A stretch of 63,892 nt of DNA, the filler included, from Kipferlia bialata (taxonomy: Eukaryota), in the NCBI GenBank assembly GCA_003568945.1. It is 6 parts of 6 records of this genome, joined end to end, with 100 filler letters (N's around TTAATTAATTAA, not from the genome) between each part and the next. Parts side by side here need not be neighbours in the genome. Positions count along the whole stretch, not along the records: positions 1 to 12,353 come from BDIP01001095.1; positions 12,454 to 24,789 come from BDIP01001096.1; positions 24,890 to 37,221 come from BDIP01001097.1; positions 37,322 to 49,650 come from BDIP01001098.1; 2 more parts are not named here. One strand, given 5' to 3'. This document shows positions 696-49,650 of the stretch, in pieces. The position numbers and the translations under genes are program-made. The notes below the pieces were generated by a model. That model searched no databases. It was given only the letters and a program-made list of their open reading frames with translations, and was not told the DNA's origin. Each line of letters opens with the position of its first letter. The first letter of the stretch is position 1.

Positions 696-1113
696 CTAGT
701 AGTCATTGACTATCCTGAGGATGGAGGGGGTCTCGTCCTTGGCCTCCTAAGGGGTCAGCGACTAATACTTAGATATATCACAAACCCACGGTAGGAAGAT
801 TTGAGAATAGAAAGAACTGGAAGAAGAGAGAGATACATATACATTTGAAAACAGTACATACCGCCACGTATCCGAACACTCTGTCTGGCACCTCTCTCTC
901 CACTCTCTCCACTCCCTCTCTCTCTCTCTCTATATGTATATATACGTTTGTACATACCGCCACGTATCCGAACACCCTGTCTGGGACCTCTCTCTCCACC
1001 CTCTCCCTCTCTCTCTCTCTCTCTCTCCATATGACTGTAGATGTATATACATATGCTAGAACATGTACATACCGCCACGTATCCGAACACCCTGTCTGGG
1101 ACCTCTCTCTCCA

Positions 1114-1150
<37 letters not shown>

Positions 1151-3759
1151 AGTATATATACATTTGTACATACCGCCACATATCCGAACACTCTGTCTGG
1201 GACCTCCCTCTCCACTCTCTCCCTCTCTCTCTCTCTCTCTATATATATATGACTGTAGATGAATACATATACTAGAACATGTACATACCGCCACNNNNNN
1301 NNNNNNNNNNNNNNNNNNNNNNNNNNNNNNNNNNNNNNNNNNNNNNNNNNNNNNNNNNNNNNNNNNNNNNNNNNNNNNNNNNNNCTCTCTCTCTCTATAT
1401 ATATATATGACTGTAGATGAATACATATACTAGAACATGCACTCACCGCCACATATCCGAACACCCTGTCTGGGACCTCTCTCTCCACTCTCTCCCTGAC
1501 CTTCCTCTCATGCCTCTCCTCGGCACCTGGGGGTGAGAAAAGGGGGTAGAGGGAGAGAGAAGAGAACCTATGCAGAGCGAAACTGATGCATCAAGTATTG
1601 GCATATATGTCTCTATATACCTATGCTTCCCTCAGCAAATGCAGCGACAGGCCTTCTGATGCAACTAGCAACACCATCTCCTGACAATAAGGGTGTAGAG
1701 AGAGAGAGAGAGAGACTTCTGATGCAGCTGGCAACACCATCTCTTGACAATAAGGGTGTAGAGAGAGAGAGAGAGAGTCTTCTGATGCAGCTGGCAACAC
1801 CATCTCCTGACAATAAGGGTGTAGGGAGAGAATAGATACTTCTGATATATAGCGCCCAACATCCTCCTGACATTATGAATGTGAGGAGAGAAAGATAGAG
1901 AGACATACCTCCCCCGGCCTTCTTGGTAGACTTGGCCATCTCCATGGGACGCCTCACAGCAATGTCCTGGGAATAAGGGTCTAGGGGGAGAGAGAGAGTA
2001 GATACTATATGTGATGCATGACAGCAATGTCCTGATACTTAAGGGTCTAGGGAGAGAGAGTAGATACTATATGTGTCTCACAGCAATGTCCTGACACTTA
2101 AGGGTGCAGAGGGGGAGAGAGAGAGAATGAATATAAGTTGGGCGCCCCACAGCAATGTCCTGGGTGGAAGTGTCCACATACAATGAGAGATAGTATGAAG
2201 ATTCAATATTGTGTATATAAAGTATACATAGTATACATATACCTTGTCCGTGAGTCTCTCTGGCCAGGCAGGTGGATATATACAGCACATACATTCTGTC
2301 CACTACAGTATACAGATAGAAATAGGTATACATACTGCTCCATACCTTGTCCGTGAGTCTCTGTGGCCAGGCAGGTGGGGCCTCGAGGTCCTTGTACTGC
2401 TGGGGGTAAGGAATGTGAATAATATCCTTTAGGATATATGCATCTATATGTATATACATATGTATGTACATATGTATCCACGCCCACGTGTCTGATGCCA
2501 CTGTCTGGTCTCTGGTCAGAGACTATACAGACTATATATATACAATATACCTATGTATGCCTTTACTATATGTGTATATATATAAATACACACTCACCCC
2601 CATGTTTGATGCCACTGTCTGGTCCCTGGTCAGGGGCTGGGACCCAAACACACGGGACTCCTTGTCCTAGGGATTAAGGGTGTAGGGGGGAGAGAGAGAG
2701 AGAGGCAAAGCGAGAGAGAGAGATGAACAGACGGGACTGCTAGCCATTCCTAAATTGTATCATTGATAGTGATTCTGGGACAACTGCATTAGAACATGCA
2801 GTAAATCTGATTCATACCTCTCCTCCCCAGTTGTAGCAACGGTCAACGGTCTGGCCTGGGGTAAAGGGGTGTAGGTAGAGAGAGAGAGAGAGAGAGAGAG
2901 AGTATATGTACCTGGCTCCAGCAGGTGCACGTTCTGTCTCCGGATGACAGACTTGCTGTCGGGCCTGGGGGTGAGGTGCACGACAAAAGAGGCATTTAGA
3001 CAGAGATATAGACTCACATACACACACACCACAAATGTGCTACCAGACTGCTGCCACTCTCTCTCTCCATATATACATATATATACTATCCATACCTGTT
3101 CTGCTTGGGTGCTGCCAGACTGCTGCCACTCTCTCTCCCTCTCTCTCTCTATATCTAAATACATATCGATCTCTCTCTCTCTATATATATATATTAATAT
3201 ACCTGTTCTGCTTGGGTGCTGCCAGACTGCTCCCACTCTGCACAATGGCACCACTGCTCTCACCGGTCCTACTGATTAGACATATATAGATATGCATAGA
3301 GAGAAAAAGGGAGGGGGGTTGACACTACTGACTGAGTAGTACTCAGAGGTACCTATCAACAGTCTCTCCGAATATGGCGTCCCTCTTGTGAGCTGGCATG
3401 ACCTCTCCGCCCTGGGGTGAGATGGAAAAGGGGGGTAGAGAGAGAGAGACAGAGAGAGAGAGAGGGAAAGAGAAAGAGTTGGGGACTGACATGACCTCCT
3501 CCGCCCAAAGAGACATAATCGCTGTATTACGGAAGACAAAGGGTGTAGATAGAGAGAGAGAGAGAGACACTCACCCTAACTCCGAGGGAGGATGTTCCAC
3601 CGCCAACGGGGGCAGGCCTGGGGGTTAGACTCAAATATGCACACACTAACAGAGAGAGAGAGAGAGAGAGAGAGTGAGAGTCATAATAATTATCGCTACA
3701 TTCACACCCTATCTATACCTGTAGTGTGTCTCCAGGGTGCTACCCATCAGCAGCTCTGC

Positions 3760-3792
<33 letters not shown>

Positions 3793-3848
3793 AATACTAC
3801 ACAATACCTGTAGTGTGTCTCCAATGTGCTATCCATCAGCAGCTCTGC

Positions 3849-3880
<32 letters not shown>

Positions 3881-6276
3881 GTATACATATATATATACCC
3901 TATATATACCTGTAGTGTGTCTCCAGTGTGCTGTCCATCAGNNNNNNNNNNNNNNTATATATACCTGTAGTGTGTCTCCAGTGTGCTGTCCATCAGCAGC
4001 TCTGCCTCTGTCCTCTCAACAGGACGGAGGAGCTCCTGCACACCTAGTGGTTAGTACATATACATGTATATGATTATGATACTAATAGGTATAAATGCAG
4101 GTATCAGTATGTAAGTTAGTACATATATGTGACTATACATCCATATGGACTATGCACAGAGAATAATACAACAACTAACAGACTGGGAAGAGGAGCTCCT
4201 GCACACCTGGGGGTTAGTTATGATATATATGTATATATAGGTGAAAAGAAATATACTCATATATATAGCACTGTCTACATATATATAGTGCTGGCCAGAG
4301 CTCCTGCACACCTGGGGTAAACACTTTAATAGACACATATAATACAACAGAGTATGATGCATACACTAGCTCCTGCACACCTGGGGATAGTACATATATG
4401 TGACTATACATCCATATGGACTAAGCACATAGAATAATACAACAACTAATAGACTGGGCGGAAGAGCTCCTGCGCCTGGGGTTAGTACCTATATGTGACT
4501 ATATTACTACAGCACTATACCCATATATGTGCTTAACTACAAATACAAGCAGAGATGCAGGAGGAACTCCTGCACACCAAATGGTTAATACGAATACATG
4601 AAAATATATAGAGACAATAAATCAATATATATATATACACATATTCTCTCTGTAACTATGTCTGGTCTCCAAAGGTGATTTGTATTGATACATCCATAGA
4701 CTCTCGTATATACACAAACATAGTCATCTGTACCTATGTCTGGGACGATCTGGTCTTCATGTAAATACTCACACATACACACACACACACATATATATAT
4801 ATATACACATGGTCTCTTCTGTACCTATGTCTGGGACTGTCTGGTCCCCAAAGGTGACATATACACACACACACATATATATACATATATGAATATATAT
4901 ACTCTCGTATACATATACCCTCTGTACCTATGTCTGGGACGGTCTGGTCTCCAAAGGTGAGGTCTATAATTATGCTTGTGTGTGCATACATATATATATA
5001 TATAATATCTTCTGTACCTATGTCTGGGACTGTCTGGTCCCCAAAGGTGAGATCGGGGATCTTGTACCTATACCGATCAGCCCTGTTCTAGAGGGTGAGT
5101 GGTATATATGTATATATATACATATAAGAATATATACATATTAGTATATAGGTATGAGTGTGAGAGCCACGTAGTGAGTGGACCTGTCAGCCCTGTTCTA
5201 CAGGGTGAGTGGCATAAATATGGCAAGAGTGTTTGAATACTTAGAAAGAGAGATACGTATATATAGTAAGAGAGCGAGCGGCCCACATTCATATCAGCCC
5301 TGTTCTACAGGATGAGAGCAAGAAAGGATGAAGGTGAAAGGGTGAGAGAGCTAGAAAGGATGAAGGTGAAAGGGTGAGAGAGCTAGAAAGGATGAAGGTG
5401 AGAGTGGTGAGAGAGCAAGAAAGGATGAAGGTAAGAGTGGTGAGAGAGAGGGGGGGGGGATGGTTCGAGTGCATGGAAGGAGAGTGGGAGGGCGCCTATT
5501 AAGCACAGTATAACAGATGTGCATTTGTAGTGCGTGGTAGCATAATAGTAGAACAGGGTGAGGGGTCTATGGAGTGCGTAGAGAGTATAGAAGTACATAT
5601 ATATACATATATACACACCCCACACACCCTGATGTCTGCTGTGTTCCTGTTGTTCTCTCTCTCTCTCTCTCTCCATATATACACTTCACTATATACTATA
5701 CACACCCTGATGTCTGCTGTGTTCCTGTTGTCCCTGGTTGGGTCCTCTCTCTCTCTCTCTCTCTCTGTCTCAATATGTATATATACAAATAGCAGGGTGG
5801 TATATTTCGTACCCTGATGTCTGCTGTGTTCCTGTTGTCCCTGGTAGGGTCCTCTCCTAGCTGGATGTGGGACACATGCCTGTGATAAGTCATATATAGA
5901 GGCATAGAGACTGGGAGAGGTCAGTCTCAATGTGAATATAGTATAGCTGGATGTGGGACACATGCCTGGGGGTGAGACACTTAACTAATAGGGATAGAGG
6001 CATAGAGAGAGAGTGTGTGAGAGAGAGGGGTAGTCTCTTGGACATGATGTGGGACACATGCCTGGGGGTGAGACATTCAAAGAGAGGGAGAATGGAGGGA
6101 GAGGTCAATGTATAGTAGTGGTGGCCATCGCCACTTCACCGTCGTTTTCCAGAGTTTACACCCAGAGAGACAGACAGACTAAGCAGGGTAGATGCTGATG
6201 CATATTGCAATACCTGGTGTTGTAGATGCCGGACATACTGGGTATGTCTTGGAGAGAGGGAGGAGCTTGATGGCAT
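696..6276 (-). CDS. Multi-exon hypothetical protein
   Basis: Chain of short GT-AG exons, e.g. HVSHIQLGEDPTRDNRNTADIR, NRADRYRYKIPDLTFGDQTVPDIG, DKESRVFGSQPLTRDQTVASNMG, QYKDLEAPPAWPQRLTDK, AEERHERKVRERVEREVPDRVFGYVA and last exon EAKDETPSILRIVNDY-TAG (696-698); start ATG at 6276 is tentative. Confidence 0.65.
1295..1384. other. Assembly gap inside an intronic repeat array
   Basis: Run of 90 N; a second gap of 14 N lies at 3942-3955, also inside a half-exon array. Confidence 0.95.
5315..5450. repeat. Intronic minisatellite, unit about 32-33 bp, 4 copies
   Basis: Repeating GAGC(A/T)AGAAAGGATGAAGGTGA(A/G)AG(T)GGTGAGA. Confidence 0.85.
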
Positions 6277-6724: not shown

Positions 6725-9700
6725 GGCAACAGAACCACATCACCTGGGTTTGCATACGAGTTCCTGTCATCAATCAAGGTACACCCACGTATCTTCCCTC
6801 TCTGTCTTTGGTATTCTAAGGAGGTCCATTGCTCTCTCTTTCTCTAGATATAAACCCTATACAAATTACATTCCTCTCACACTAGGACGCTCTATCCGAT
6901 GCCCTGTATCTCTTCATATGTATTCATATTACTTCTCACCTCAGGACGCTCTGTCCAATGCCGATGCCCTGTAGATAACAATTACTCTCTTTTGAGTCTC
7001 TGTGCCTCTCTCCACAGTTATGATGACGCATCTCTTCTCACCCCAGGACGCCCTGTCCAATGCCGATGCCCTGTATCTGGCCAGGGACACAGGCACAGAG
7101 GGGGAGGGAGAGACAGCAGGGGAGGCAGAGACTGAGGGAGAGGGCAAGAGAGAGAGAGAGGAGACGGAGGAGGAGAAGGCCATGGCCCATGTGAGGAAGG
7201 TATCACAGAGTGGTATATATATATGTGTGTGTGCGTGTGGGTGTCTATATTGCTACTACTACTTGTCATATATCTCTCTACCATCCCTCTCACCCCCTAG
7301 GTTGCCTCTCTGATGAGTGCTGTCGAGAGGCGTAACAGATGTCTGGCCTATCTGCAGCTGGGTGTCATAGCAGCCAATGCATACGATGGGAGGTATGGTT
7401 ATGCAATTGATGCACACCAGTGAATTTATATAGAGTAATTGATACACCCCAGTCGATATATGACCTTAATACAATGCATTCGATGGGAGGTATGAGTATT
7501 GTGATACACATATCCCTTGCTAGAGATCACATATATAGTTGTACAGTCAGTTACCATTGCCAATGCATATGATGGAGTGTGTGTATTTAGTGGTAAGCAG
7601 CGGATACGTATCCTTTGCTGAGATCACATATATAGTCGTATTGCATGTTACAATTAAAGGGCATATCCTCAGACCTAGACACACCTTTGCCGCTGAGCTT
7701 CTGCCATAAACAAATGTCACTATATTGACATCGATGCTATGATATTCTGTTTACAATTACTATTTGAGTCAATAATATTGATGTAACACATCTCACCCCA
7801 GACACCCCTTTGCGGCTGAGCTCCTGTCCCTGTCCACACACTATGTCCACATGGGGGCACTGTTCAGAGTGGACATGGGAGGTATATATAAGTGTATAAG
7901 TGTATTATTGGATATTCTATATAGTAGAGAGATAGAGAGGGGTGTATGTATACTGGTACTATATCACTATGTCCACATGGGGGCACTGTTCAGAGTGGAC
8001 ATGGGAGGTAGGGAAATGTCTATATATATGTATATACACTTGTATTGTATACAAAATATAGGACAGGGAGTGAGGGGTGTGTGTATATACTATAATACAT
8101 ATATAAATGGGGGCACTGTTCAGAGTGGATATGGGAGGTAGGGATATACATACATGTACTGTATTCCTGTGTATACGGGCACTGTTCAGAGTGGACATAG
8201 TACATATTGGTAGTATATGTATCCAGTATGTGTGTTGCTTCATATATATATGACACCCACACTCAGGCGCTGCCTCACTTACACCTGTGTACCCTAGTTG
8301 ATGTGTGTATACTAACCCCCAGGCTCTGCTTCCAAGTCTGCCCCCAAGGGCAAGGGAAAGGCAGCAGCCCCAGTGGCCACGGGGGGGACAGCCCAGGTAT
8401 GTTTTGCGCATATGTGTGTTTATACTACAAATATTTATATCGCTATTATCACTTATAGTAACTCAACATTATTAATTACACGTAGATATATTAATAATAT
8501 TTATCGACAGCTTATATAGAATAGTTTCAGTGGCTACAGGGGTGACAGCTCATGTTGAGTGCTATATATACGTGTCACCTAAAGGTGGTTGGATACCATC
8601 TTGGGTATTTTCAATTCAATCCCCCCTCCCCCCTCATGTTGACACGGCCCTTGTGTCTAGGATCTGTATATATATACATACATATATATATATATATACT
8701 CTATATCTGTATATTGTATATATATGCATCTCACCCCGTCAAGTTGACACGTTCCTGGTGTCTGTATATATGTATCTGTGTATATGTATATATACATATG
8801 TATATACACACTATATGTGTATCGTATATATATTGTATATATGCCTCACCCTATCAGGTTGACACGTCCCTTGTTTATAATAGTATATGTGTCAGTGTAT
8901 AAACACAATATGTGTATATACATATACTATATACATATTCTCACCCTATCAGGTTGACACGTCTCTAGTCCCCAGACAGATGGCTGCCCTGCTACTGGTG
9001 GGCGAGGGTTACATTGCAAAGTTCAATAGGTGGGCACTCATATATATGGTATATATGAGTACATATATCGTAAAGGTACGGTATTCAGTCATATTTCCTG
9101 ACCCCATCCTATGCTCGGCTTGTCTATATACATGATAGTTACCTATATATGGGAGATACAAATTCACGTGGTGTGGATACAACATGCCTCCATGTATACT
9201 ATAATTCACCCCAGCCTGTGCTCTGGCCTTGTCTCTACAGGTGTGCCCAGGAACAGTGCCACATACACAATGGGGCAGCAGACTAGTAGGTATAGTATAG
9301 TGGACATATATGTATATATATATATATGATGGTGTATATAGTGCCACATACACAATGGGGCAGCAGACTAGTAGGTATAGTATAGTGTATATATATGTAT
9401 ATATATATGATGGTGTATGTAGTGCCACATACACAATGGGACAGCAGACTAGTAGGTATTGAGTGTATGTATATATTCCTACCTATACAGTTATGTATAG
9501 TATCCACCCCCCGAGGGAGTTGGTCTCTGCCCTGACCTATGTATATGTAGAGTTAATTGCAATATCAGGACGATATATACATGTTTCCCAGTACAGTCTT
9601 GTGTGGTGTTGTGTGGTATCATCCTCACCCCCAGGGAGATGGTGTCTTCCCTGCATCAATATATTGATATTGATAAGGACAGTATAGGATATCTCTCTCT

Positions 9701-12253
9701 TGTTTCTCTGTGTATCATCCTCACCCCTAGGGAGATGGTGTCTGCCCTTACCACTGCCTGTACACTGCTCAACAAGTGCATGGACACAATGGAGGTACAT
9801 ACATATATATGAGTATACATGTGTATAGACTATATATATTCTAGAAGGTGTACCCTACTCAACAAGTGCATGGACACAATGGAGGTATGGGTATGAGTGT
9901 GAATACGCATTTATAGATGTGATAGTATGTACATTTGTGCAAATTCATTGTCATTTGGACATAACCATCTATATAGTACAATCCTCCCCCCCCTTCAACT
10001 ACCTCACCCTCAGACCTACCGCTCCATGCTCACCTCCACCCAGCTAGACCCTGTCTACACCCTTAATGCACTCAGACTGGCGGTGTCTGGGGCAAAGATT
10101 CTCATTACTGCACTCGACAGCCTCAGGTCAGGATGAATGTATGATTAGGATATATATATATGTATATATACATATGATGTCTACTGTGTATAGTGTTTGT
10201 ATCTCTCACTGTTAGGTGTGGCCCTGGCGAGATATCAGCATGCGTCCCTGCCTCTCTGGCAGCATGTGTGCACAGGTGTGTGGGTATAAGTACTATATTG
10301 TACATATATTCATTAATAGTATGTATATATCCCCTGCCTCTCTGGCAGCGTGTGTGCACAGGTATGTGTGTATCAATACTATTCCGATAGTTGTTTACTA
10401 TCTAATGTATTATTATATTATATGTCTGTTCGGGACAATGATCTGTATGCTATATTATGTTTGCATTCTCACCCCAGGTTCCTCCCCTTCCTGATAGGCC
10501 CTGAGTCCTATAGCGCCATGCACCTCAAGGGGGAGACAGCCGGTGTGTGAATATGTTCATTGTCCTACTTTGCCATACGCAGCATAGTCTATCCGTGTAC
10601 AGGCCCCCTCATATCATCCTACTAGATACGCCCGCATGTATACACGAACATCCCTTACCTCTAGGTGGCAAGCGTGCCCGTGCCGGTATAGAGATCAAGG
10701 GCCTGTGTGCTGCTGTGGCACTGCTAGAAGTGCAGGTATGGATGTGTGTGTGTATTTGTGGATATTCCTTACTCTGTGTATTACTGAGTTCCAAGTATTC
10801 CAAGTGTGTATACCTTATGCATTGGTGTATGTGTATGAGTTGGTATGTATCTGCCCCCCTCACTGTTAGGCCCTCGCCACTGAGGAGAGTATCACCTGCA
10901 ACCCCCTAGTCTTCAAGACAAAGAGAGAGAGGGAGGGAGAGAGAGAGAAGGAGAGAGAGGCAGAGGGGACAGGAGAGACAGCACCTGAGACAGATGCGGC
11001 AGAGGCAGAGGCAGAGGCTGTACCTGAGCCAACCCCCGGGCAGATAGCAAGAGAGGAGGCAGAGGCAGAGAGGGAGAGAGAGAGGGAGAGAGAGATCGAC
11101 AGGGAGAGAGAGTCCCTGCGCCACGTATCTGTCTCTGTCAAGGGGGGTAGCAGGGTGCTGGACACGGGCACAGAGTCAAGGTATCACTATTACTGTATAT
11201 TGAGATTGTTATATGTATGTGTGTGGTTGTATATATGTGTACATATCGTAGTAGGTGCTGGACACGAACACAGAGTCAAGGTATCACTATTACTATGTAT
11301 TTAGATTGTTATGTGTATCTGTATGAGTGTGGTGCTGGACACGGGCACAGAGTCGAGGTAATGCCACATGTGTATATAGTACATATTACATGACTGATTG
11401 AGTGTATCTGTGTGTATGTCATTTGTGAAAGGTCCACTGGATTCGAGTCTTGGTGGGTGTCATACCATGTCGTTAGTGTTATGGTAATGGTATGGAGCTG
11501 ATTCCAACACTAACCATGAGGCGTCGCCGTTGCACCTACAGATATGCTCTGTCTGACAGGGAGAGAGAGAGAGAGGCAGAGAGGGGTGTTGATACAGGAG
11601 CTGATGGTGATGACACAGACACTAAGGGTGCCGAGGACAGTGCTGCTCTGGAGGCCTTGAAGGTACAGTATTGGATCAATATACCATATATTCATGCCTA
11701 CTTCCCATAATGAACACCCTATCACTTCCCGCTATCCCTTAATTCTTGAGTCCTAATGAGTGCTCTCTTACCCTTGTTCTGACCTGCACCGGTGCAGTAT
11801 ATATGATAGCTCTCTCTCTCTCTATATATATATGGGTGTAGACACCTGTCTCTCACCCTTCAGTCCTCCCTAACCCTTGTGCTGACCTGCACCGATGCAG
11901 TGTGCACGGAGTACAGGGTCAGACTGATTGACATATCACCAGAGGCTGACACTAAGGGTATGGTGTTATATGTATATATGCATATGCAGCTATGGGCATG
12001 GTATGGGTGGGTGGGAGGGTGATAGCCGATGGCACCGTTGATGGCGTACCTTTGATATCACCTGTGATATGGTGATAGATGTACATCATGTGATATGTTC
12101 ATATATAATTGTGACCCCTCTCACTTCCAGGCATCACCCTGTACCCCAGGATGGCATCAGCCGTTGCATCCATTGTGAGGATAGGCTTCTATCTTCAGTC
12201 ACTCGCTGGCAACACGGTGGCCAGTCTGCCTGACCTGACACCCTCCCATGCAG
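6725..12253 (+). CDS. Large multi-exon hypothetical protein, partial at both ends
   Basis: In-phase GT-AG exons, e.g. DALSNADALYLARD..., VASLMSAVERRNRCLAYLQLGVIAANAYDG, HPFAAELLSLSTHYVHMGALFRVDMG, TYRSMLTSTQLDPVYTLNALRLAVSGAKILITALDSL, ITLYPRMASAVASIVRIGFYLQSLAG; no start found after the poly-C at about 6630-6660. Confidence 0.65.
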
Positions 12254-12625: not shown

Positions 12626-12667
<42 letters not shown>

Positions 12668-37505: not shown

Positions 37506-38926
37506 GCTGCCCAGTATGCCGCTGCCACCCAGGGTGCAGGGGCAGGGTATGGACAGCAGTACGCATACGCATACATGCCAGGTGGGTGTAGAGTGTACAC
37601 ATATATATATTGTAGATGCGTATGGATACCAGATGGGGATGATACCCCCTCCCCATATTTACCACCACCTTGGCTCAACTCTCTCCCCCCCCCCCCCTCT
37701 CTCTCCCTCTCACTCTAGGTGTCTCCTACCAGTCCTAATACACCATGACTGTCTTTTTTTCTCTCTCTCTATATATATATATATATGTGTGTGTCTCACT
37801 CCAGGTGTCTCCTACCAGTCCTACTACACCATGCCGGTCTCTGTCCCAGTGGCACAGTACTCCAAGAAGCTGGGGAGGAAGCTGGTCGAGTTCAAGCCAA
37901 GGTATGTATATACTTGTATATAGTCATATTCTCTCTCTCTCTATATATATATACACTCACCCCAGGGATGACGATGACAACATTGTGCCCCATGGGTTCA
38001 ACGTCAAGAGGTGGTTTGACTACCAGGTACCCTATGCCTATCATACAAGTATTATACATATTTGTGTATAGTTGTTGTATATATTTGTAGTATATGTATG
38101 TAGTTGATATAGTATCATCGTGCCCCATGGGTTCAACGTCCAGAGGTGGTTTGACTACCAGGTAAAGGGTGCATCTATTATGTGTGTAATAATAACTAAT
38201 TACTATTTAGGTATTATATAATGTCTAACCTTTAAGATTATTAAGCACGAGGAGCTGAAGAAGGACAATTCTATGATGATGTGGTGTACATTAGTTGTAG
38301 AATAATATTTATTTCTCCCCATCTCCTTCTAACCCTAGCACGAGGAGCTGAAGAAGGACAAGAAGAGTAGTATTAATATATATTTATATATATGGTATAT
38401 GTATAGTATATATATACTATATACGTGTCTAACCTTAAAGCACGAGGAGCTCAAGAAGGACAAGAAGAAGAGTATATATAGTATATACGTATAGTATATA
38501 TATATATATATATAGTGTATATATAGTCAGTACTTCTAACCCCAGCACGAGGAGCTCAAGAAGGACAAGAAGAAGGCCCCCAAGTCCAAGAACGGGTTTG
38601 GGTTCCCATTCGGCAGGGCACTCGGAAGGGTGGAGGCAAAGTGAGTATTGTCATATATATATGAACACTCTTAGTATACCCATTTCTTACGCGATAGGTA
38701 CGGAGGCACCACCACTGCCTTCTTTGCCCTGGCCAGGTGGTTCCTGATGCTCAACCTCTTCCTGTGTGCAGTGTGGATTGGACTGGTGGTACTGCCAAAC
38801 TACAGGTATACTCTCTCTCTCTCTCTCTCTCTCTGTCATGTTAATATAATAGTAAGTATGTGCAGTGTGGATTGGACTGGTGGTACTACCCAACTACAGG
38901 TATGTATATTATAGTATATTGTATAG

Positions 38927-38958
<32 letters not shown>

Positions 38959-39234
38959 TGTATATATCTCAGGTATGGTGTATTCTAGTATATATAAGAT
39001 ATATAGTGTAGCAGTGTGGACTGGTGGTGCTGCCAAAGTACAAATATACCCCCCCCCCCCTCTATACTCCTAATATCCAGCGATGCCCCCATCCCCGACT
39101 CCTACTGGACAGACTCTCTCTCTCTCTCTCTCTCTCTCTCTACACCCTTATTCCCAGCGATGCCCCCATCCCTGACTCCTACTGGACAGACTCCTCCCTC
39201 ATAGACTTTGCAACAACCCTGGTCACATGGGCAG
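37506..39234 (+). CDS. Transmembrane channel-like (TMC family) protein, N-terminal fragment
   Basis: Spliced FPFGRALGRVEAK-YGGTTTAFFALARWFLMLNLFLCAVWIGLVVLP resembles the TMC pre-TM1/TM1 signature (L..IE..FG..V.SYF.FLRWL..LN). Confidence 0.72.
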
Positions 39235-39406
39235 GTATATATATATTTTGTATATGGTATATATATATACATAAGAGAAGGGGAGAGGGAGTATATATGT
39301 AGTGTGTATATATAGTATCTATCATAGACTATGCAAAAACCCTAGTCACATGGGCAGGTATCTATGTGTAAAAACTCCTATATTGTATTGGTGTTCTCTC
39401 CTGCCA

Positions 39407-39437
<31 letters not shown>

Positions 39438-39706
39438 TTTCCCCCCCTTCCCCCCCCCCCCCCCCCCCCCCCCCCGTGTCTCTCTCGTTTAACTCGACAG
39501 CATTGTTTGACCCCTAGGCTAATGAAGAAGTATTCGTTTTGCATGTGTGTCCGTTTATGTCGTGTATCTTCTCTTCCATTCTGACCCACCACTTCTCTCT
39601 CTCTCTCTCTCTAATACTTAGGACTGTGTATACGTTCCGTCTCCTGCCTCTTCTCCTCCATCATCATCACCAACCACTTCTCTCTCTCTCTTGCTCTAAT
39701 TCTAAG

Positions 39707-42700
39707 GACTGTGTGTCCGTTCCATATCGTGCCTGTTTGCCTCTATCCTGACACACCACTCTGATATGTCTGTGGATGAGCTGCCCCTGTCTCTCTCTGT
39801 ACTCAAGGCACTCAATGGGGTGACATCCCCGGTTGACATGGCTGCACTCATACACACTGCCAGAGAGCATTACGAGGAGTCAGGTAATAGTTATATATTG
39901 TATTTTTACCTAATTCTTGTGTTGTTCCATGCTGCATACATATTGTAACATAGTCTTCTTCTCTAACCCCCAGAGAGCCATGAGAAGGAGCGCCTTCGGA
40001 ATGCCGAGCCAGACCTACCATCCATACATGCCCTGAGGACATACATACACAGGTGAGATACTTTATTAGTTTCTAACTAATCAGAATTACCATGACTCTT
40101 CCATACATGCCCTGCGGACATACATTCACAGGTGTGGTACAAACATAAACATATACTCTTCATTTACAAATTATACACATATTATGGAATATTACAGTTC
40201 TATTATTGTAATATGTGTCATCTCACACTAGGGAGAGAGAGATGGGTGGTGGGTATGGAGTAGGGATGACATCAGGGGAGAGAGAGAGAGATGATTTAGA
40301 TGAGTTTGAGACTCTGGAGCAGGAGGAGGAGAGGGAGAGGGAGAAGGAGAGAGAAGAGCATGTGCAAGAGCAACAGTCTGAGGAGGTGGGTGTCTAGAGA
40401 GGATATGATATGGGAATGCTTAAATTTCTGGACCTCTAACCCATTAGGACTCCGGTGTCATCTACAACTGCATGGCTCTGAGGCAGGGTCTGGATCTAGC
40501 TGTCAAGGGAGGACTGGAGGTAGAGGGTGAATCTTACGGTAGCAAGGGTAGCCCTAGAGGGTCTCGGGGTGTGAGGCATAGCGATGAGGGTGTCATCATG
40601 ATATCCTTGTGCGAGGTGTCTCTGCAAGAGTTGGCGATGCTCAGCGACATCATTCCTTCACTGTCCGGCAACCTCATAGGTGAGCGTATATATTACTACA
40701 TATGTGTGTGTGAGACCATGTGTTAAGTATATGTGTATGTGGAGACTAGTATGTGCCTCTTCGAATACTGGTGCTGACTCTCAGGTGTCCATATTGATGG
40801 CTCTGCCCCCCCTACGAGTGTCTTCCACTCCATCCTAGAAGAGGAGGCCAAGGGGGCAGCAAACACCCTAGGGGGTACATCACCACTGGCATCACCTGCT
40901 GCAGAGGGGGGAGTGGGACCAACGTCACCAGTCCTGTCAGATATAGGTAAAATTACCAATAGTCACATACTATACAATATACTCTATACTCTATATGATT
41001 TATATAACAATGTTGTGTGTGATATATATCATATGTCCATATTCTTTTCAGCTAACCCCAGCGCTTGGCCCCAAGGAGACACAGATTAGTATTATGATAT
41101 ATCTACCCACTTAAGAGTATTCCACTAACTATAGGCCTGGACCCCGAGGAGGCCGAGAGGGAGAAGGAGAGGGAGAGAGAGCGTGTCTCTGACTCTGACA
41201 TGCAGTATGAGCTGGTGTCTCTGTTCAGCTCTCTGGGTGCAGTCTATAGGTTCAGAGAGCTCAGCCTGCGGTCGGTCAACCTCACAGGTGAGAGAATACT
41301 TCTATTAGATCTAATGTAGGTGACTGTATATTATTAGTTAGTCAACCTCACAGGTGGGATGACTGTATACTTTACATATTTGTATACTTGACTCTGTGTT
41401 CCTCTAATAGCATTAGGTCTTGCCTGCGATGCCCTCGTGTGTCTATTAGACATGAATATACACATTATTGTAGTGACTTGTCTTATTCATTTTATTAGTA
41501 CTAGGCCTAGTATAGTATCTAATCCACAGGTCTTGCCTGTGATGCCCTTGTGTGTCTATTAGACCAGTCCACACACCTACACACCCTGGACCTCACAGGA
41601 TGTACACTGGATCAGGTTGGTTTATGTACTGTATTGACTATAGAAACAGGTGGTCATAAATGGTATATATTTTGGAGGTAGGACTCTTTCTACCCCCAGG
41701 ACGTTGCCCGTCTTATCGGCACTTCCATCTCTCTTATTCTCTGCATATATATGTATTGTATCTCCACTCCACTATGTTCTTACCCCAGGACGTAGCCCCT
41801 CTCATCGGTGCCTCCATCTCCAGTCTCAGACACCTCCGGCACCTATCATTGTACTCCCTCACACCCCTTGCCACCGTTGCAGCTGGCATGCCATCCCTGG
41901 ATGCACTGGTCAGACTGACACACATCGACATGGCATACTGCTACTCGCAGCGGTTCTTATCCATGATCATGGGGGTAGGGGCAGGTATGCGAAGATGTGT
42001 ATATGTCAAATGAATCTTTTGTTGTCTAATGGTGTATATATTCACACCAGGTGGCAGTGACTGTGACCCCGAGGTTGACATAGGCAGTGAGGTCATCACC
42101 AGTCCATACCCATGCACATCAGGTAGAGTATTGTAGGACAGTATATATATGAATTACAGACATATGGCTGTGCATATGAATTTGTGTCTCGCATACCCAT
42201 GTACATCAGGTGCGTTAGACGGGATTAATTATTACATGTATGTACTCTGGTGTCTGTAGTTGTGATGGTTTGTGTGCATGCCACTGTCTGGTATATATCT
42301 CACCCCAGGCCACTACGGTCTGCTCTCATCCCTCAGACACCTCACCACCCTCAATGTCACTGGGTGCCAACTGAGTGCTGAGAGGACAGCACACCTGCTG
42401 AAGGTAATGGATATACTCTGTATTGTGAGGGGAGAACAACAGTATACCATACGATATACAACATGAAGATGGGATAGTGATGGACAGCACACCTGCTGAA
42501 GGTAGGGCCATGACGTATTGTTGATTATCATATAACCGGCATCTAACCCCCTCAGGCCGTGACCCCCTCTGAGTACGGTGGATGTCCCATGCTGAAGGAG
42601 TTGAATGTCAGAAACAACACCTTCCACGCCTGCACTGCCTCTGCCCTCGCGTCCTGTCTCTCTCTCTCCCCATGTCTCACGAACCTTGATATATCCTGGT

Positions 42701-43014
42701 CCCACCTAGGCTCTAGGCTCTTCTGCCACCTCATTCCATACATCACAGACAGCAACCTGGTATCCTTGAACCTGACCTCCTGTGATCTAGGAGACGAGGC
42801 GTGTTTCAGGCTATTGGCGGCTCTTTCTGCATGTCCCACATTGAGAAGTCTCCTCTTAGACTATAACGGGATCACTCTGAAGGGTGCCAATAAGATGTTG
42901 AAGGAGGTGGCACCTGCCAAGCATGTGTCAGTCAGGATGATGGGTACCAACCCCATAAGATGTAGTCTGTTTGACAAGAGAACAGTCGGGAAACTGGTAA
43001 CACTAGACAAATAG
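39707..43014 (+). CDS. Leucine-rich repeat protein (RNI-like), 5' truncated
   Basis: Repeated LxxLxLxxN/CxL units: LHTLDLTGCTL, LTTLNVTGCQL, LKELNVRNNTF, LTNLDISWSHL, LVSLNLTSCDL, LRSLLLDYNGI; TAG at 43012-43014. Confidence 0.88.
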
Positions 43015-43123: not shown

Positions 43124-46100
43124 TCACTTCTCAGATGTAGTCACCAGCATCACCATACGAGTGTCACTGGATCCAAGGCGTCTGACCAAGACCTTCCCAT
43201 AACGCTGACTGTTACTCATGCAGATGAGATTAGTACTAGTAGAGGTGGCTAGAGGTAGCCTCACCTGAATCTTTCCGTCCTCTGGGTACAGACTGCATAC
43301 GGTTTGAACACAGGTACGTATCTGCTCACGGAGTGGATCGGCCATAATGGTCATCCTAACGCTCTCTGAGGGGTTAAGCAACCTAAGAAGGATAATGCAC
43401 GATGTACGTATGACATGGCGAAGACGTCAATCCATATGTGTGCTGGTATAGTAAGTACTTTCGGACTCTTATCAACGCGTGTGCATATCTGGATACAAAC
43501 ATGCCTTGTAGTCATTAATCTACTTACCAAAATAGTTCAGTTGCTGAAGGGTTGCGATAGCATGGAATACCATCCCGTCATCGTCCTTGTATCTATATAG
43601 GGCAGTTAGGAGCACATCCAATACCCCACTACGATGCAGTATATGCATGTCCTGGATACCTGTCCATTATATTCAATACTTTATACCTAGCTATCTCTTC
43701 AATTCCAGGCTAAGGACGATATATATATTACATGGCTATCGTGATAGTACTCACCGCAAGACTCCGTCACCCGTCGAAATAGAATTAGGACATGATCAGC
43801 AATTTCCTTAGCATCCGGAAACCGTTCGAATGCTGCAATCGCTTGAAGATGTCCGTTACCGGCCATGAAATATCGCCACCCTGCCATATTGGAAACGTTA
43901 CATGTAGGAGGACTATTTGATAGGATATATGTATGCGATATGAATCATATTATGGACATACGTTGCTATATTTGAACTAGATTCACCATTGAGACATATA
44001 CAGAACAGTTTCAATTATTCTCTCGATGCAGTAATGAATCATTACTAATGATATATATCTACCTTTGGAATCCCCGGGGTCTACCTCGCCGATGAGGTTT
44101 GTCATCGCGTAGGTACTTCTGCACACCACACCTTGGTCCCACGGATATGCACGTGCATGCCGCAATAAGAGGTCAATGAACCCTTCTTCTACCAACGGTT
44201 TAACCACTGATTGACCTGGGGAAGACAGGCGATATTCTTGGAAGTTATAACCTAGTTATAGCATACACGTATATATGTAACAGTAAGACAGCATACCCGC
44301 ACATGCTATGGAGCCCAGGACAAATGCACCATCGGAGGCAACACGATGACTTAAGAGACCTGGAGTTGAGAGGTGAAGTAGTAAACTTAGATCGACGTCC
44401 TCATGGATGTTACATAGAAACAATACATATCTGGTAGGTAGTGACTACGATACATAGAATAGTCCCACCTAATGTGTTGAATGCGTGTCCCACGATCAAC
44501 CTGGTCATATTCGTCTCCTTTTCCTCAATGTCAGAGCTGTAGCTATCTGTGTAAGAGCATATACATTCCATGACACCTGAAGCGTATACATATACATGCC
44601 ACACTCATTCACTGTATACTGGGTTACATATATCAAACCTTCTAGATCGTAGAACATCTCCACCATACTGGCCAATGCACTTTCGACTATGGGAACGAAG
44701 GCCTTCTCTCCACTTGGAGTGTACTGCCTCATAGCGCCCTGAACGATATTCAGGAGAAGATCAAAACCCCCAACCCTAGCAACGGGTCTGCACAGGGAAT
44801 AGTCTGGGGATTAGTCATCACAACTATGTATGTAACCATACTACATTGAATAGTTTAGTTTCTATAATTGATTGAAGTGGTGATTGATGAAAAATACGGA
44901 ATACGTACTTTCAAGCATGAGCTTCAAGAACTGTGTGGTAGTCTGGAATATCTCCAATGGGTTTCTGTAAGCACAGTACTTCCTGATGGCCTTAAGCAAG
45001 GGAGATACAACTCCCAGCTTCCAGAGGTAATCAGTGAATCCATGCTCTGGAATAGTTAGAAAACTGTCTGAATTACACATAGAGGGGCACTAAAGTCATG
45101 AAGTAGTACCTCAATATACACAGATAATCATCTACTAAATGGATCAAGAGCTCACACATGCCCAACATATATGTACTTACGATATACAAATAGTAGCAAT
45201 ATCATATGATGAATAGAGGGATATACCTGTCTCGACCATGTATTGGAGAACCTTCACTGTCCAGACAACAGTTTCGTCATATTCTGGATTGGGATTCTCT
45301 AGAGTGGCCTTGAGGATGTGGAGACCTGCGCACTTGGTACCAATGTACTCACAAGTAGGGAAATCTATCATGAGAGACAATGTAACGCAACGTACAAATT
45401 GGGCATCATTCATGTCTACAATATACTTATATATGTGCTACGATTATGATTACCTCCTTTGCAAAGATGTGCCAAAGCTACCGTCCCACCATGTAGGAAG
45501 AGAACTGGAAGCACTTTCATGAACTTTACAATAGAGTTTAGGCACTTGGCTTCCCTCAAAGCTTTCAGGACACCGTCTGCGGATGAGAGACACATAAGAA
45601 AATGGCGTATAGCACACATATAGATATATTCTATATATACTGAAGAGGAGTATGTATATATTCATAATACACACTACCTGAGCCTCTCTCTGCCAGTGTA
45701 GTGAGCGTGTACCAGATGAGATCACGCAGATGATCTGTAGCGTTCCTGTGGCTCATGACAGAAACCAGGCGAGGGATAACCTGACACTCACACATGATAG
45801 GGCAGAAGTCCTCATCTGATGTGAGACACTTCACTCCAACTAAGGAAAATTGTGTTTGTTCAACACATTGAGGAAACATAAACATTCTATCACAGCCTTA
45901 CCTTCACATAACATCATGTAGGATAAGAACGGGACGCACTCGTTGTACACCCCAATGTTATTTCTCTGAGTCAGAGGATGACTGTTCATGGCGGCGAGTG
46001 CCACCCTTGGATAAGCGTATGGTAATTGGTGGTAATAATTGTTCTGGTACAGTAGTACTATGATAGTACCCAAAGAGGTAGTGTATACTCCACTTTACAA

Positions 46101-47996
46101 CTAACCTGTGTACCCCTCTGTCTACTAGGAGATGCTTGTGACCTGATGTAAGAGGATACGGCATCAGCAAAGAAATATCCACAATAACACTATACGTAGG
46201 GAGTATGTACATAGATGGTTGAAACAATAGCACCAAAATATACATGTATAATATATCCTGTATTGTCTGTTCTACCTGCTATGGACCATGTGTTCATTAC
46301 ACGCATCACAGCTTCTGCAACCTGCTCATCGTCTTCTCCGTGATTGTCATTACACGCTAGCAGTACCTCCATGGCAACAGGGTCATACTCTGATAGTCAG
46401 CAACAGTGATATATTCATATTCATATTTCTATATATGTCTGTGGAAGTATGGGAAGGGGACTGGTAATAAGAGCCGTAGGTCATGCGACATACGAGGCAC
46501 TACCACAACCATATACATTCTAAACAATACCAAGTGATTGTGTATATGATACCATAGGAAGGCATACCACGATAAGTGAGGTCAGACTCTTATCTATATA
46601 TACTCTGACTATCAACATGTCATCACTAATATATGTATATCATCAATATTATGAGTACTACAATATACAATGTCCACAATATACCTCCATCTAGGTTGGA
46701 TCCCACCATGACGGCTGACAGACAGAGATCCTCATCTATCATATTCTCCATGATGATTCTGATGCAGAGAGGGAAGAGGCCCAGAGAGGCTAGGATACGC
46801 CGAGGTTGGAGCGCTGAAAGTGAGACGGATAAATTACCACCACCACCATAATACAATCTAAATACACAATACACCCCACCTGGACGCATCATTTCATATA
46901 TCTCGTCCAGTGCGTCTTGGAGGACAGCGGTACTGTAGCTACCCTGCAACATAGTACGGAGCCTCTCATTCTGCAGCCTGGCTATCAGAAGAACCCAAAC
47001 ACCCACATGCAATGGGAATATATGTACAATGAAAGAGTCATTGCAAATGTAAAAGGACATATAATACTCGACTGTGTACTACTGGGACATGAGGCGGATT
47101 CATATACATCTGTCTGACCTCAGATCACTCTCATGGATACGACGTATGGGACCTTCCACCTCTGTCACTGGTACTGATTCAACCTCTTCATCCTGGATAA
47201 GAGCTCAACAAGTATATGTAAAACCGCAGTACTATACCGGTCACAAGGATCAAACTATCTCGCCAACTTATCAATATATATGTGTATGTACATACTGAAG
47301 GTGAAAGTGTGTATCTTCATACCTGGCCAAGAATAGCTATCTGGCCAACTAGGTAAATATCCGGTAATTGATTGGATAGATCTACTCTGTATTCTGTATC
47401 AATACCTGTCCAAGTATAGTCCTGCATGCATCCAGAGGGCAATCTGACATACAAGTTGGACACTTAGATACAGGATTAGTCTCTGGAGTGAGACCACAAC
47501 ACATGTATGTATATGGGTATATATACTCATGGATAAGAAAGTTGGAAGCACAACTTATGGAAAGGGGGGTATATACTCACTGCTATACCTAGCGCGTTGG
47601 CGAGACATGTCCCATGGAACAGGTGTCCACAGGGGGTTATGAGGAATGGGTCTGGATATGAGTGATCAGAGCGCAGAGAGAGAGATAGAGCAAGGGTGAG
47701 TGACGGAGAGCAAGCGTGACTGTATACATCTCGTAGAGTGGTGGATAGAGAGAGAATAAACGATATGGAATACATCACCTTTGAAAGGGGGGGGGGGGGG
47801 GATTTCCTACTAGCTACAATGATGATGTTAGGGGGAAACTAGCTTTCACTAGTGTTGACTCTCTGTCTATATATGCATCTGTATATCTAACTACACATAC
47901 AATAGCTGAGGATACATAATATATATGTCAGAGCATGAGAGAAGATAATGCCCTACCTTCATTGTGGACCTTGCATATTGCACATGTCAATAGCAT
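43124..47996 (-). CDS. RING-H2 finger plus armadillo/HEAT-like repeat protein (putative E3 ligase)
   Basis: Spliced MLLTCAICKVHNE-DPFLITPCGHLFHGTCLANAL-ETNPVSKCPTC (C3H2C3), followed by ARM-like helices (CQVIPRLVSVM..LIWYTLTTLA, LGVVSPLLKAI, EEGFIDLLLRHA); TGA at 43124-43126. Confidence 0.8.
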
Positions 47997-48335: not shown

Positions 48336-48416
48336 TGGTAGGAGACCTGTCGGGATGGCTGCTCAAGAGGGACAGGATGCTGAGGCGGTGGCACATGCGC
48401 TACTTTGTACTCTCAG
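48335..48416 (+). CDS. PH-domain protein, first exon only
   Basis: MVGDLSGWLLKRDRMLRRWHMRYFVLSG (PH beta1-beta2 pattern GWL.K...W..RYFVL), then a GTGAG donor; the gene stops at the poly-G near 48490. Confidence 0.8.
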
Positions 48417-48674
48417 GTGAGGATCAGTCTATCAGTCAATGATACATTGGGTGTATATACTGACTCCCACTCTCACTCTGTATTCTTGGGGGGGGGGGGG
48501 GGGGGGAAGGAGGGGGGGGGGGGGGGGGCGACATCACAGTGAGAGACACTGGGAGAATAGCACACCAATACAGAACTCCCTAATATCCACTGTCCAATCA
48601 GCTACACAGGAGTGGGCGAGTGTATGTGGAGTATATAGTATGTATATATAGAAGTCTAATGAGATATATCGTAC

Positions 48675-48767
48675 CGTGCATGATCCCCCACATGCACTCC
48701 TGGCCAGTGACCCAAGTGCACCCTTGGTGACATTGGTCACAGACACAGACCTCAGTGCTGACAGCAT
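48675..48767 (-). CDS. First exon of a protein with a mitochondrial/MRO presequence-like N-terminus
   Basis: MLSALRSVSVTNVTKGALGSLARSACGGSCT has no acidic residues and is Ser/Leu/Arg-rich, followed by a GTACG donor. Confidence 0.45.
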
Positions 48768-49316
48768 TGGTATATATATGATAAAGAGGGAGACGTTCGG
48801 TGTCTTTGCTTGTCCGTCAGATTCGACGTTTGAGAGTTTGAGTCAAAACACCCACATATTGCAGCTACCCGCGTAATCCCAAGACACACCATTAATACTA
48901 ACTAATCTATTCACCCCCATTGCGTGTACCACTATACGACTCAGTAATCAGAGAGCCACATTGCGTGGTAAGTGTCAACGCAATGTAAGAGCCTAACTGC
49001 TACCAGCTTGATCTTAACTCTCACAGGAATACACCTCTGTCTCTCATTCCATACCCACATGAAAGGGCATTGTAAGAGAGTAATACGACAGGAGGAAGAT
49101 ACTTCCGCGTGCCTGGCAGTGACTGAGGAACATAGTGCATACTAGACTCACTCTCCCTTTCCGCCTCTCTCGATCTCCCTCTCTGCGGAGAGCACAAGCC
49201 GACGTGTCCAATTGTCTAGTGGACTCTCTCTCCCTCTCTAACCATCCACTCTATCTCTGTGGTTTCCGATCTCTCTGTCTCTCTCTCTCTCTCAATCCCC
49301 TCTCTCTCTGTGGTAC

Positions 49317-49396
49317 CTAGTCAATGTTGCTCTTGGATATCCGAGCCACCAGTCTCATGTATGTCACGGTGGACAGAGGGGACCGGAGGACAGTGA
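49317..49396 (-). CDS. Terminal exon of a hypothetical gene
   Basis: CTAACCGTAG acceptor then TVLRSPLSTVTYMRLVARISKSNID-TAG; frame supported by synonymous-only shadow copies. Confidence 0.65.
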
Positions 49397-49650
49397 CTAC
49401 GGTTAGAAGAGTTATATATATAGAAAATGTGGATATATGTCTAGATATGAGATGTATGTCACGGTGGAGAGAGGGGACCGGAGGACAGTGACTATGATCA
49501 GATAGGGTATATACAGAGTATTTAGGTAATCATATACAGATATGCAAGACACACGTATGTCACGGTGGATAGAGGAGAACGGAGGACAGTGACTAGAGTG
49601 AGAGGCGGGTGGGGGGGGGGGGGGGGGGGAAAAAAAAAAAAAAAAGAGGA

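What the first reader, a model, noticed from the sequence alone, without database searches (positions are those of the whole stretch)
845..49600. Window-wide system of intronic 'shadow' half-exons flanking functional exons
Seen: in most genes on several independent scaffolds, introns hold 1-5 partial copies (about 15-60 nt) of the adjacent exon. The geometry is consistent. Copies upstream of an exon are branch point + AG + exon 5' end, and copies downstream are exon 3' end + GT donor. Each copy's free end usually runs into (TA)n/(GA)n. Differences from the real exon are mostly synonymous. Inference: this is not ordinary decayed tandem duplication. It looks like a process that repeatedly captures already-diverged, formerly coding exon ends (other alleles or haplotypes) and stacks them in introns, or else a splicing system that still uses them. 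I do not know of a description of this architecture.
Basis: partly seen in the sequence, partly recalled or inferred. Interest (0 to 1): 0.92.

Follow-up and report, generated by a model that had tools for sequence, protein, structure and literature searches.

The report
Introns archive other strains' exon ends
In the free-living protist Kipferlia bialata, about a third of the exon ends examined are repeated inside the neighbouring intron as unused half-exons that differ from the real exon, and from each other, mainly at silent codon positions, which likely means they were picked up by recombination from other, very divergent individuals and would be a genomic trace of sex in a group where sex has never been observed.

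Summary
Confirmed and strengthened. The window is six short scaffold pieces of Kipferlia bialata. In 20 gene models, 100 of 332 exon ends carry 1-5 intronic partial copies: 154 copies, all in the stated polarity, 0 in 684 controls, spaced 98±18 nt apart. Exon-versus-copy dN/dS is 0.15 and copy-versus-copy 0.08; decay after duplication cannot go below about 0.5. The few amino-acid changes look neutral. DNA contigs run straight through 12 copies at even depth, and one spliced RNA contig skips every copy of its gene. 'Usually runs into a microsatellite' is overstated (34% versus 23%). Best reading (0.68): splice-junction tandem units of about 100 nt whose exon part is loaded or refreshed from functional exons of other haplotypes by out-of-register recombination, then decays. 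The copies imply synonymous diversity near 0.2-0.35 from at least three haplotypes. No other isolate was found to test this. Nine literature searches found no description. This scan has noted single-locus look-alikes in other genomes, not a genome-wide system.

The parts
696..6236 (-). Gene G1 (15 exons, unknown protein) with 30 counted half-exon copies, including the donor array at 862-1174 where the finding starts (4 copies, 5 distinct third-position haplotypes counting the exon)
   Evidence: two N gaps fall inside arrays
6886..12253 (+). Gene G2 (15 exons) with 20 copies
12600..16000 (+). Gene G3 with 11 copies; the copies at 14255 and 14370 have Ser TCA where the exon has Ser AGT
17094..18372 (+). 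Gene G4 with 3 copies
19177..24722 (-). Gene G5 (adenylate/guanylate cyclase-like, weak Pfam PF00211 on one exon) with 12 copies
24945..29462 (-). Gene G6 (coiled-coil part of annotated protein P0002), 13 exons backed by a spliced RNA contig; 20 copies (two lie upstream of the first exon), 12 of them inside two DNA contigs
24945..24978 (-). Acceptor-type copy whose real exon lies beyond the scaffold end; it differs from the RNA's next exon at 7 of 10 codons, all synonymous (compared by eye; not among the 153 counted)
   Evidence: loose RNA end against the sequence printed
29902..35020 (-). Gene G7 (N-terminal part of P0002, weak B9-C2 match) with 22 copies, dN/dS 0.09; two four-copy arrays
35746..37204 (+). 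Gene G8 (DEAD-box helicase C-terminal part; label from recalled motifs, single exons gave no Pfam hit) with 8 copies, dN/dS 0.08
37397..39358 (+). Gene G9 with 10 copies
39541..43014 (+). Gene G10 (leucine-rich repeat protein) with 8 copies
49317..49592 (-). Last exon of gene G12 with 2 acceptor-type copies
59173..61930 (+).
44063..47651 (-). Contrast: gene G11, 0 copies at 30 exon ends (reading frame of my joined model not resolved; exon ends only)
50160..57939 (.). Contrast: six genes (G13-G18, including ALG11) with 0 copies at 47 exon ends

Best explanation
The copies are unused tandem units of about 100 nt, each made of one exon end, its splice site and part of the adjacent intron, and their exon part was likely taken from functional exons of other, highly divergent haplotypes by out-of-register recombination between homologous chromosomes. 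Shown: the geometry, the spacing, the synonymous skew between exon and copy and between copies, skipping in the mRNA of one gene, and neutral-looking amino-acid changes. Inferred step 1: a founder unit arises when a break in an intron is joined out of register (offset breaks on two chromatids, or aborted gap repair closed by polymerase-theta end joining). Only units spanning a single splice site leave the reading frame intact, which gives the polarity. Inferred step 2: introns of different haplotypes are too diverged to pair, so exon ends and their copies are the only islands of homology. A functional exon of haplotype B can pair with a copy on haplotype A, and exchange or conversion there replaces the splice-site side of the copy and its flank with B's version and can change copy number. 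Inferred step 3: each copy then decays neutrally (about 3% so far) until it is replaced or deleted. Inferred step 4: the spliceosome ignores the copies by recognising whole exons (first donor, last acceptor), perhaps backed by decay of mis-spliced RNA. The donor pool needs at least three haplotypes about 0.2-0.35 apart at synonymous sites, most simply an outcrossing, hyperdiverse population.
For: Copy-versus-copy pS 0.276, pN 0.027, dN/dS 0.079 in 55 pairs: two intronic copies differ as two working alleles would. Changes private to one copy: 54 S / 25 N, dN/dS 0.14. Not a mutation-spectrum effect: 235 synonymous against a null mean of 97 (base-matched, max 126) or 107 (trinucleotide-matched, max 135); transversions alone 90 against 42. 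Divergence does not rise with distance from the exon (pS 0.216/0.225/0.225 by rank), and arrays show 3-5 distinct haplotypes and 5 sites with two different synonymous alternatives, so the pattern is star-like. Non-synonymous changes match a random null (BLOSUM -0.49 against -0.58; 4 stops against 3.7). pS is 0.32-0.35 in the splice-site half and 0.19 in the free half, with pN flat (p about 1e-4); 150 simulations with uniform divergence never gave this (max 0.112 against 0.142), as expected of chimeric copies. 28 of 55 copy pairs share a free-end breakpoint (17% by chance), and those pairs have related free-side flanks (p 9e-7). Yet 0 of 136 splice-side flanks are as close to the real flank as a fresh duplicate would be (max score 60; 5th percentile 69 at 6% change). 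DNA contigs of 1005 and 2321 nt span 12 copies at depth 399 and 440, like neighbouring contigs, and the RNA contig skips all copies with no other letters in its listed pieces. Context from papers: fornicates lack Rad51A and NHEJ and keep two Dmc1 paralogs (PMC8516963); K. bialata has Spo11, PolQ, Msh3 and Rad10 (its supplement); crossovers in the hypervariable fungus S. commune fall preferentially in exons (PMC4209137 abstract).
Against: No donor haplotype was observed: both metagenome scans were empty, and the DNA run lists only one differing base over 4.5 kb. The implied diversity (JC dS 0.24-0.36) exceeds the 0.20 reported for S. commune (PMC4576712 abstract). Flank similarity does not correlate with synonymous distance (rho -0.07 and 0.08), although linked haplotype blocks would predict it. 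The narrow unit length (98±18 nt, equal to an ordinary intron) and the absence of copies in 8 of 20 genes are not explained. The model expects more non-synonymous decay in the free half, but pN is flat between halves (0.026 against 0.023) and raised only in the last 8 nt (0.043). RNA evidence covers one gene and is one contig. No whole genome was held, so all counts are from this window.
Confidence: 0.68

Rival explanations
1. Same capture process, but the donors are homeologs or paralogs (old polyploid or hybrid copies, or long-diverged alleles of an asexual lineage) that were later lost, so no outcrossing population is needed.
For: Explains the synonymous-only divergence and the Ser codon-family switch without record diversity in one population; the strain shows no second allele at G6.
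Against: Copies differ from each other (pS 0.276) as much as from the exon (0.217), and private changes outnumber shared ones 54 to 21, so at least three donors are needed within a short time (decay only about 3%). The G6 and ALG11 exons each found a single protein with one member and one contig (weak evidence).
Confidence: 0.1
2. Second-order selection within one chromosome lineage: unequal sister exchange or single-strand annealing now and then promotes a copy into the reading frame, so harmful amino-acid changes in copies are purged while silent ones accumulate.
For: Needs no second haplotype; the arrays clearly expand and contract (shared breakpoints); splice signals are mostly intact (74 of 85 AG, 62 of 68 GT/GC).
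Against: Surviving amino-acid changes are not conservative, and stops occur at the random rate. 3 of 5 detected indels shift the frame. Frequent sister exchange should leave many young copies with identical flanks; 0 of 136 have them. By my estimate it also needs a population size times mutation rate as large as the best explanation does.
Confidence: 0.1
3. The copies are still translated in rare isoforms through alternative, recursive or trans-splicing.
For: Splice scores of copies are close to the real sites (donors 5.96 against 6.19; acceptors 7.1 against 8.4). Assembled contigs drop rare isoforms.
Against: The RNA contig uses only the full exons across 12 introns. Copies cover a median 35% of the exon and have no second splice site. 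Use of a copy's site gives a frameshift or stop in 124 of 135 cases. No enrichment of GT starts (14 of 54 against 27 of 115) or of acceptor-like exon ends.
Confidence: 0.05
4. Assembly artefact: haplotypes of a mixed culture were concatenated.
For: Short-read draft; two N gaps lie inside arrays; the unit length is close to a common short-read length; run X1 may be the source data, so it is not independent.
Against: Contigs from a separate assembly of the run pass through 12 copies with 1 other letter at depth 399-440, equal to flanking contigs (341-454). Copies carry stops and frameshifts that living alleles would not.
Confidence: 0.03
5. Ordinary tandem duplication followed by neutral decay, with silent change in the live exon only.
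For: Gives the polarity; spacers of neighbouring units are often homologous; 31 of 153 copies are identical to the exon.
Against: Predicts a synonymous fraction of 0.38 and dN/dS of about 0.5 or more; observed 0.65 and 0.15, and 0.08 between copies. No CpG or GC asymmetry points to a hypermutable exon.
Confidence: 0.02

Closest known systems
Splice-junction minisatellite of human F7 intron 7 (37-bp VNTR with silent 5' pseudo-sites; PMC1557585, abstract read)
   Same: A tandem unit spans the exon-intron boundary; intact downstream donors stay silent and the most upstream donor is used.
   Different: One locus, and pseudo-sites identical in sequence. Here about 30% of exon ends, both donors and acceptors, units of about 100 nt, diverged at synonymous sites and in the spacer.
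Tandem exon duplication and mutually exclusive exons (Ivanov and Pervouchine 2022, PMC9013439, passages read)
   Same: Intronic sequence homologous to the neighbouring exon.
   Different: Those are whole exons, some expressed. Here never a whole exon (median 35%, max 80%), one splice site only, and skipped in the mRNA seen.
Crossing-over confined to exons in hypervariable Schizophyllum commune (PMC4209137, PMC4576712; abstracts read)
   Same: Alleles so divergent that conserved exons are where recombination can happen; synonymous diversity of 0.13-0.20.
   Different: The abstracts describe in-register crossovers and mention no intronic exon-end arrays. Diversity there is measured from isolates; here it is inferred from copies in one genome.
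Meiotic double-cut end joining and aborted gap repair between homologs in mouse (bioRxiv 10.1101/2020.06.23.168138, passages read)
   Same: Offset breaks on two chromatids can give tandem duplications, and inter-homolog joins with haplotype switches were recovered: a precedent for the founder step.
   Different: Rare events at hotspot pairs, mostly without ATM, around a kilobase; not a standing genome architecture.
Silent-cassette gene conversion (trypanosome VSG, Neisseria pilin, Borrelia vls; recalled, not checked)
   Same: Partial, unexpressed gene copies exchange sequence with the expressed copy.
   Different: Those store amino-acid diversity for one surface gene family. Here the stored diversity is silent and lies in unrelated genes, with no sign of function.

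Membership tests
Splice-junction minisatellite (F7 IVS7 type) | Repeat unit spans one exon-intron boundary, head to tail | tested here: met
   154 of 154 copies in the expected polarity, 98±18 nt period, homologous spacers in many arrays
Splice-junction minisatellite (F7 IVS7 type) | Pseudo splice sites intact but silent | tested here: met
   16 intact sites inside RNA-backed introns of G6 are skipped; 10 score at or above the real site; one gene only
Splice-junction minisatellite (F7 IVS7 type) | Units near-identical, differences neutral | tested here: not met
   dN/dS 0.08-0.15; 0 of 136 flanks near-identical
Splice-junction minisatellite (F7 IVS7 type) | Copy number varies between individuals | not testable with these tools
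   no second isolate found
Tandem duplicated / mutually exclusive exons | Copy is a whole exon with both splice sites | tested here: not met
   copy/exon length median 0.35, max 0.80; no copy anchored at both ends
Tandem duplicated / mutually exclusive exons | Copy included in mRNA | tested here: not met
   RNA contig skips all copies of G6; rare isoforms not visible in contigs
Recursive splicing (ratchet sites) | AG directly followed by GT regenerated at the intermediate site | tested here: not met
   GT start in 14 of 54 exons with copies against 27 of 115 without; acceptor-like exon ends 5 of 46 against 8 of 117
Mobile element carrying a replacement exon end (introner or endonuclease-type) | A shared element sequence at many loci | tested here: inconclusive
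   copies are locus-specific (0 of 684 cross-gene hits); spacers of different loci align at a median 0.49, but no dedicated family search was run
Unequal recombination among divergent alleles | Copies behave like independent draws from a pool of functional alleles | tested here: met
   copy-copy pS 0.276, pN 0.027; no rank order; 3-5 haplotypes per large array
Unequal recombination among divergent alleles | Chimeric copies (polarity of divergence along the copy) | tested here: met
   pS 0.32-0.35 against 0.19, beyond all 150 simulations
Unequal recombination among divergent alleles | Donor alleles exist in other individuals | not testable with these tools
   metagenome scans empty; one sample in public runs
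Unequal recombination among divergent alleles | Linked flank tracks the donor haplotype | tested here: inconclusive
   no correlation of flank score with pS; flanks are short and low in complexity

The most novel reading that the evidence does not exclude
The K. bialata genome carries a genome-wide fossil record of other individuals' alleles. Tens of thousands of intronic half-exons (extrapolated from about one copy per intron here) are continually loaded from homologous chromosomes by mismatch-tolerant recombination in a lineage without Rad51A. They record outcrossing and synonymous diversity of about 0.25-0.35, above the highest published value, in a group where sex has never been seen, and force exon-level splice-site choice in an organism with 100-nt introns.
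Probability: 0.5. Interest if true: 0.92.

Novelty: new variant of a known kind. Interest (0 to 1): 0.82.

Why it matters
[quoted passage not shown] The prediction is sharp and cheap to test: the copies' silent variants should turn up as alleles in other isolates. Whatever the origin, the architecture is large. Each copy adds about 100 nt to its intron (slope 100.6), so 153 copies account for about 15 kb of this 64-kb window, a possible contributor to a genome twice the size of Carpediemonas membranifera's (51.0 against 24.2 Mb). It is also a natural experiment in splice-site choice: a reduced spliceosome (87 of 174 proteins, PMC6679479) ignores intact, equally strong splice sites 100 nt from the real ones. 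It also warns that copies can be mistaken for exons in gene prediction, as happened in my own automatic runs.

Tried and rejected
No whole genome was held, so no genome-wide count was possible. Metagenome scans with P0002 and P0001 found no relative. No listed run is on record as RNA; X2 is a guessed RNA run that proved spliced when laid. Reads were laid on one 4.5-kb stretch only, so all other arrays lack read support. A protein search with an LRR exon found nothing. Single exons of G8 and G9 gave no Pfam hit, so those labels are recalled. Rejected: recursive splicing; CpG or base-composition bias as the source of the synonymous skew; alignment end-trimming as the source of the gradient; microsatellite microhomology as the general junction mechanism (only 13 of 153 junctions lie inside a dinucleotide-periodic run); an age order by distance from the exon. 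Flank similarity against synonymous distance gave no signal. The 17 copies without an intact AG/GT at the anchor have dN/dS 0.39; they are included in the overall figure. The reading frame of G11 was not resolved; it has no copies and enters only the count of exon ends. Look-ups of earlier findings by place, relatives and organism name returned nothing on this genome.
Full report
What the window is. It holds five scaffold pieces of about 12.3 kb in falling order of length plus the start of a sixth, joined by N spacers. A long exon matches KIPB_004914 of Kipferlia bialata at 99%, and another matches a K. bialata protein at 100%; the contig lengths given (12319 and 12332) equal two of the scaffolds. 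Introns have a branch point fused to the acceptor, 3-4 nt before the AG in most cases. I built 20 gene models with a self-trained gene finder and manual curation; 19 read as open frames. My G7 and G6 models equal the annotated protein P0002, and the G6 exon chain is backed by a spliced contig of run X2 (8 of its 13 exons are listed as pieces, the rest follow from joints and record coordinates).

The observation. An anchored scan of 332 exon ends found 154 copies at 100 ends: 85 acceptor-type upstream, 69 donor-type downstream, none in the wrong polarity, none in 684 control pairs. An unanchored scan agreed. Copies are 13-50 nt long (5th-95th percentile) and never a whole exon. Successive copies are 98±18 nt apart (148 of 153 under 150 nt), the length of an ordinary intron here (median 92-103), and each copy adds 100.6 nt to its intron. 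Twelve genes have copies; eight have none at 85 ends. Copy-free introns of affected genes are richer in AT and in microsatellites than those of unaffected genes (0.176 against 0.069), but free ends are only modestly enriched for microsatellites (34% against 23%).

Not an assembly artefact at the locus tested. On 24935-29480, contigs of DNA run X1 of 1005 and 2321 nt pass through 4 and 8 copies at depth 399 and 440, like their neighbours (341-454), with one other letter listed. Part of the longer contig fell in a skipped repeat, but its record length fits the genomic distance. X1 may be the data behind the window, so this tests the assembly and not the culture. Contigs also drop rare variants.

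Not used in the mRNA seen. The X2 contig (1993 nt) is spliced at GT-AG introns, takes the first donor and the last acceptor each time, and shows no other letters in its listed pieces. Sixteen intact copy splice sites lie inside these introns, and 10 score at least as well as the real site. Across the window, 136 of 153 copies keep AG or GT/GC, and using them would give a frameshift or a stop in 124 of 135 cases.

The synonymous signal. After dropping one copy beside an N gap, 153 copies differ from their exons at 364 of 4544 sites: 64/53/247 by codon position, 235 synonymous, dN/dS 0.148. Nulls matched for base and for trinucleotide give 97 and 107 synonymous changes, never above 135. One copy per end gives 0.136 (95% 0.11-0.17). 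If a copy decays neutrally while only the live exon is constrained, the synonymous fraction should be 0.38; it is 0.65 (p 3e-24, not corrected for shared changes). The decisive results are between copies. Private changes are 54 synonymous to 25 not, and 55 copy pairs give pS 0.276, pN 0.027, dN/dS 0.079. Two copies have Ser TCA where the exon has Ser AGT. An out-of-sample copy at 24978 differs from the RNA's next exon at 7 of 10 codons, all silent (by eye). The 89 unique amino-acid changes look random (BLOSUM -0.49 against -0.58; 4 stops against 3.7), and 3 of 5 detected deletions shift the frame. So each copy spent most of its separate history as coding sequence, and a short recent part (about 0.03 changes per site) as junk.

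Where the coding history comes from. In one chromosome lineage only one copy is translated at a time, so two copies cannot both have been constrained unless they were functional on different chromosomes (inference). Divergence does not grow with distance from the exon, private changes far outnumber shared ones, and large arrays show 3-5 haplotypes. This fits draws from a pool of at least three alleles about 0.2-0.35 apart (fourfold sites JC 0.24 overall, 0.36 in the splice-site half). Three features point to unequal exchange at the copies. Copies in an array often share a breakpoint (28 of 55 pairs against 17% expected; related free-side flanks, p 9e-7). Divergence is higher on the splice-site side (0.32-0.35 against 0.19). 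No splice-side flank is as close to the real flank as a fresh duplicate would be (0 of 136). An old unit whose splice-side part and flank have been swapped in from another haplotype gives all three. Against this: flank similarity does not track synonymous distance, pN is flat between halves, and no donor was found.

Mechanistic context from papers. Fornicates lack Rad51A and classical end joining and keep two Dmc1 paralogs; meiotic genes are conserved but sex has not been observed in metamonads (PMC8516963, sections 8 and 10 read). Its Supplementary Data 2 lists Spo11, PolQ, Msh3 and Rad10 for K. bialata (rows seen; one supplementary file was unreadable). That Dmc1 tolerates mismatches is recalled and comes from no call. 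In S. commune crossovers prefer exons and synonymous diversity reaches 0.20 (abstracts). Inter-homolog end joining and duplications at offset meiotic breaks are shown in mouse (passages; bioRxiv supplements are closed).

Comparison and novelty. The layout is that of a splice-junction minisatellite such as human F7 intron 7 (abstract), but the units are not homogeneous and the phenomenon covers 30% of exon ends. They are not duplicated or mutually exclusive exons (passages), nor recursive-splicing sites. The K. bialata genome paper has no occurrence of 'duplicat', 'heterozyg' or 'ploid' in its main text, and its overview section does not mention such copies (supplements not read). Nine searches (listings and abstract starts only) showed no description; the library lacks most subscription papers. 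Earlier notes of this scan describe single-locus look-alikes in other genomes, unchecked by me.

Verdict. The architecture is real, abundant and, as far as I could find, undescribed. Plain decay is excluded in this window. Capture from divergent haplotypes by out-of-register recombination is the best explanation (0.68), with outcrossing in a hyperdiverse population as its simplest reading. The unit length of about 100 nt, the copy-free genes and the way the spliceosome skips the decoys remain open.

Noticed in passing
window 13244 (+): A GC-AG intron is needed to keep the G3 reading frame open.
   Followed up: partly
window about 29790-30003: The RNA contig continues upstream of exon 29462 into an exon not found in the window, while annotated protein P0002 joins G7 directly to G6. 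This suggests a misjoin or collapse near the G-run, or a missing exon; P0002 may be a fusion of two genes.
   Followed up: partly
window 50160-51570 (+), 51974-53200 (-), 57349-58374 (+): An inverted pair of related membrane-protein genes and a possible third relative (similarity seen by eye); none has intronic copies.
   Followed up: no
window 55502-55999 and 56421-56907 (-): A tandem pair of small paralogous hydrophobic genes with the same intron positions; no intronic copies.
   Followed up: no
window 43100-48040 (-): Gene G11 has microsatellite-poor introns (12 nt/kb) and no copies, next to copy-rich genes on the same scaffold: copy density changes sharply between neighbouring genes.
   Followed up: partly
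window about 300-410 (-): Start of a small Arf-like GTPase gene (P-loop motif by recall, translation).
   Followed up: no
window 37506-39234 (+): G9 resembles the N-terminal part of a TMC-type channel (recalled; one exon gave no Pfam hit).
   Followed up: partly
window 5300-5430 and 35926-35990: Purely intronic short tandem repeats of about 30 nt; only 4 introns hold an exact non-exonic repeat of 22 nt or more, far fewer than exon-end copies.
   Followed up: partly
scaffold ends and 6630-6670, 35683-35722, 39407-39475, 58982-59060: Long C or G runs at many scaffold ends and inside scaffolds, likely where the short-read assembly breaks or misjoins.
   Followed up: no
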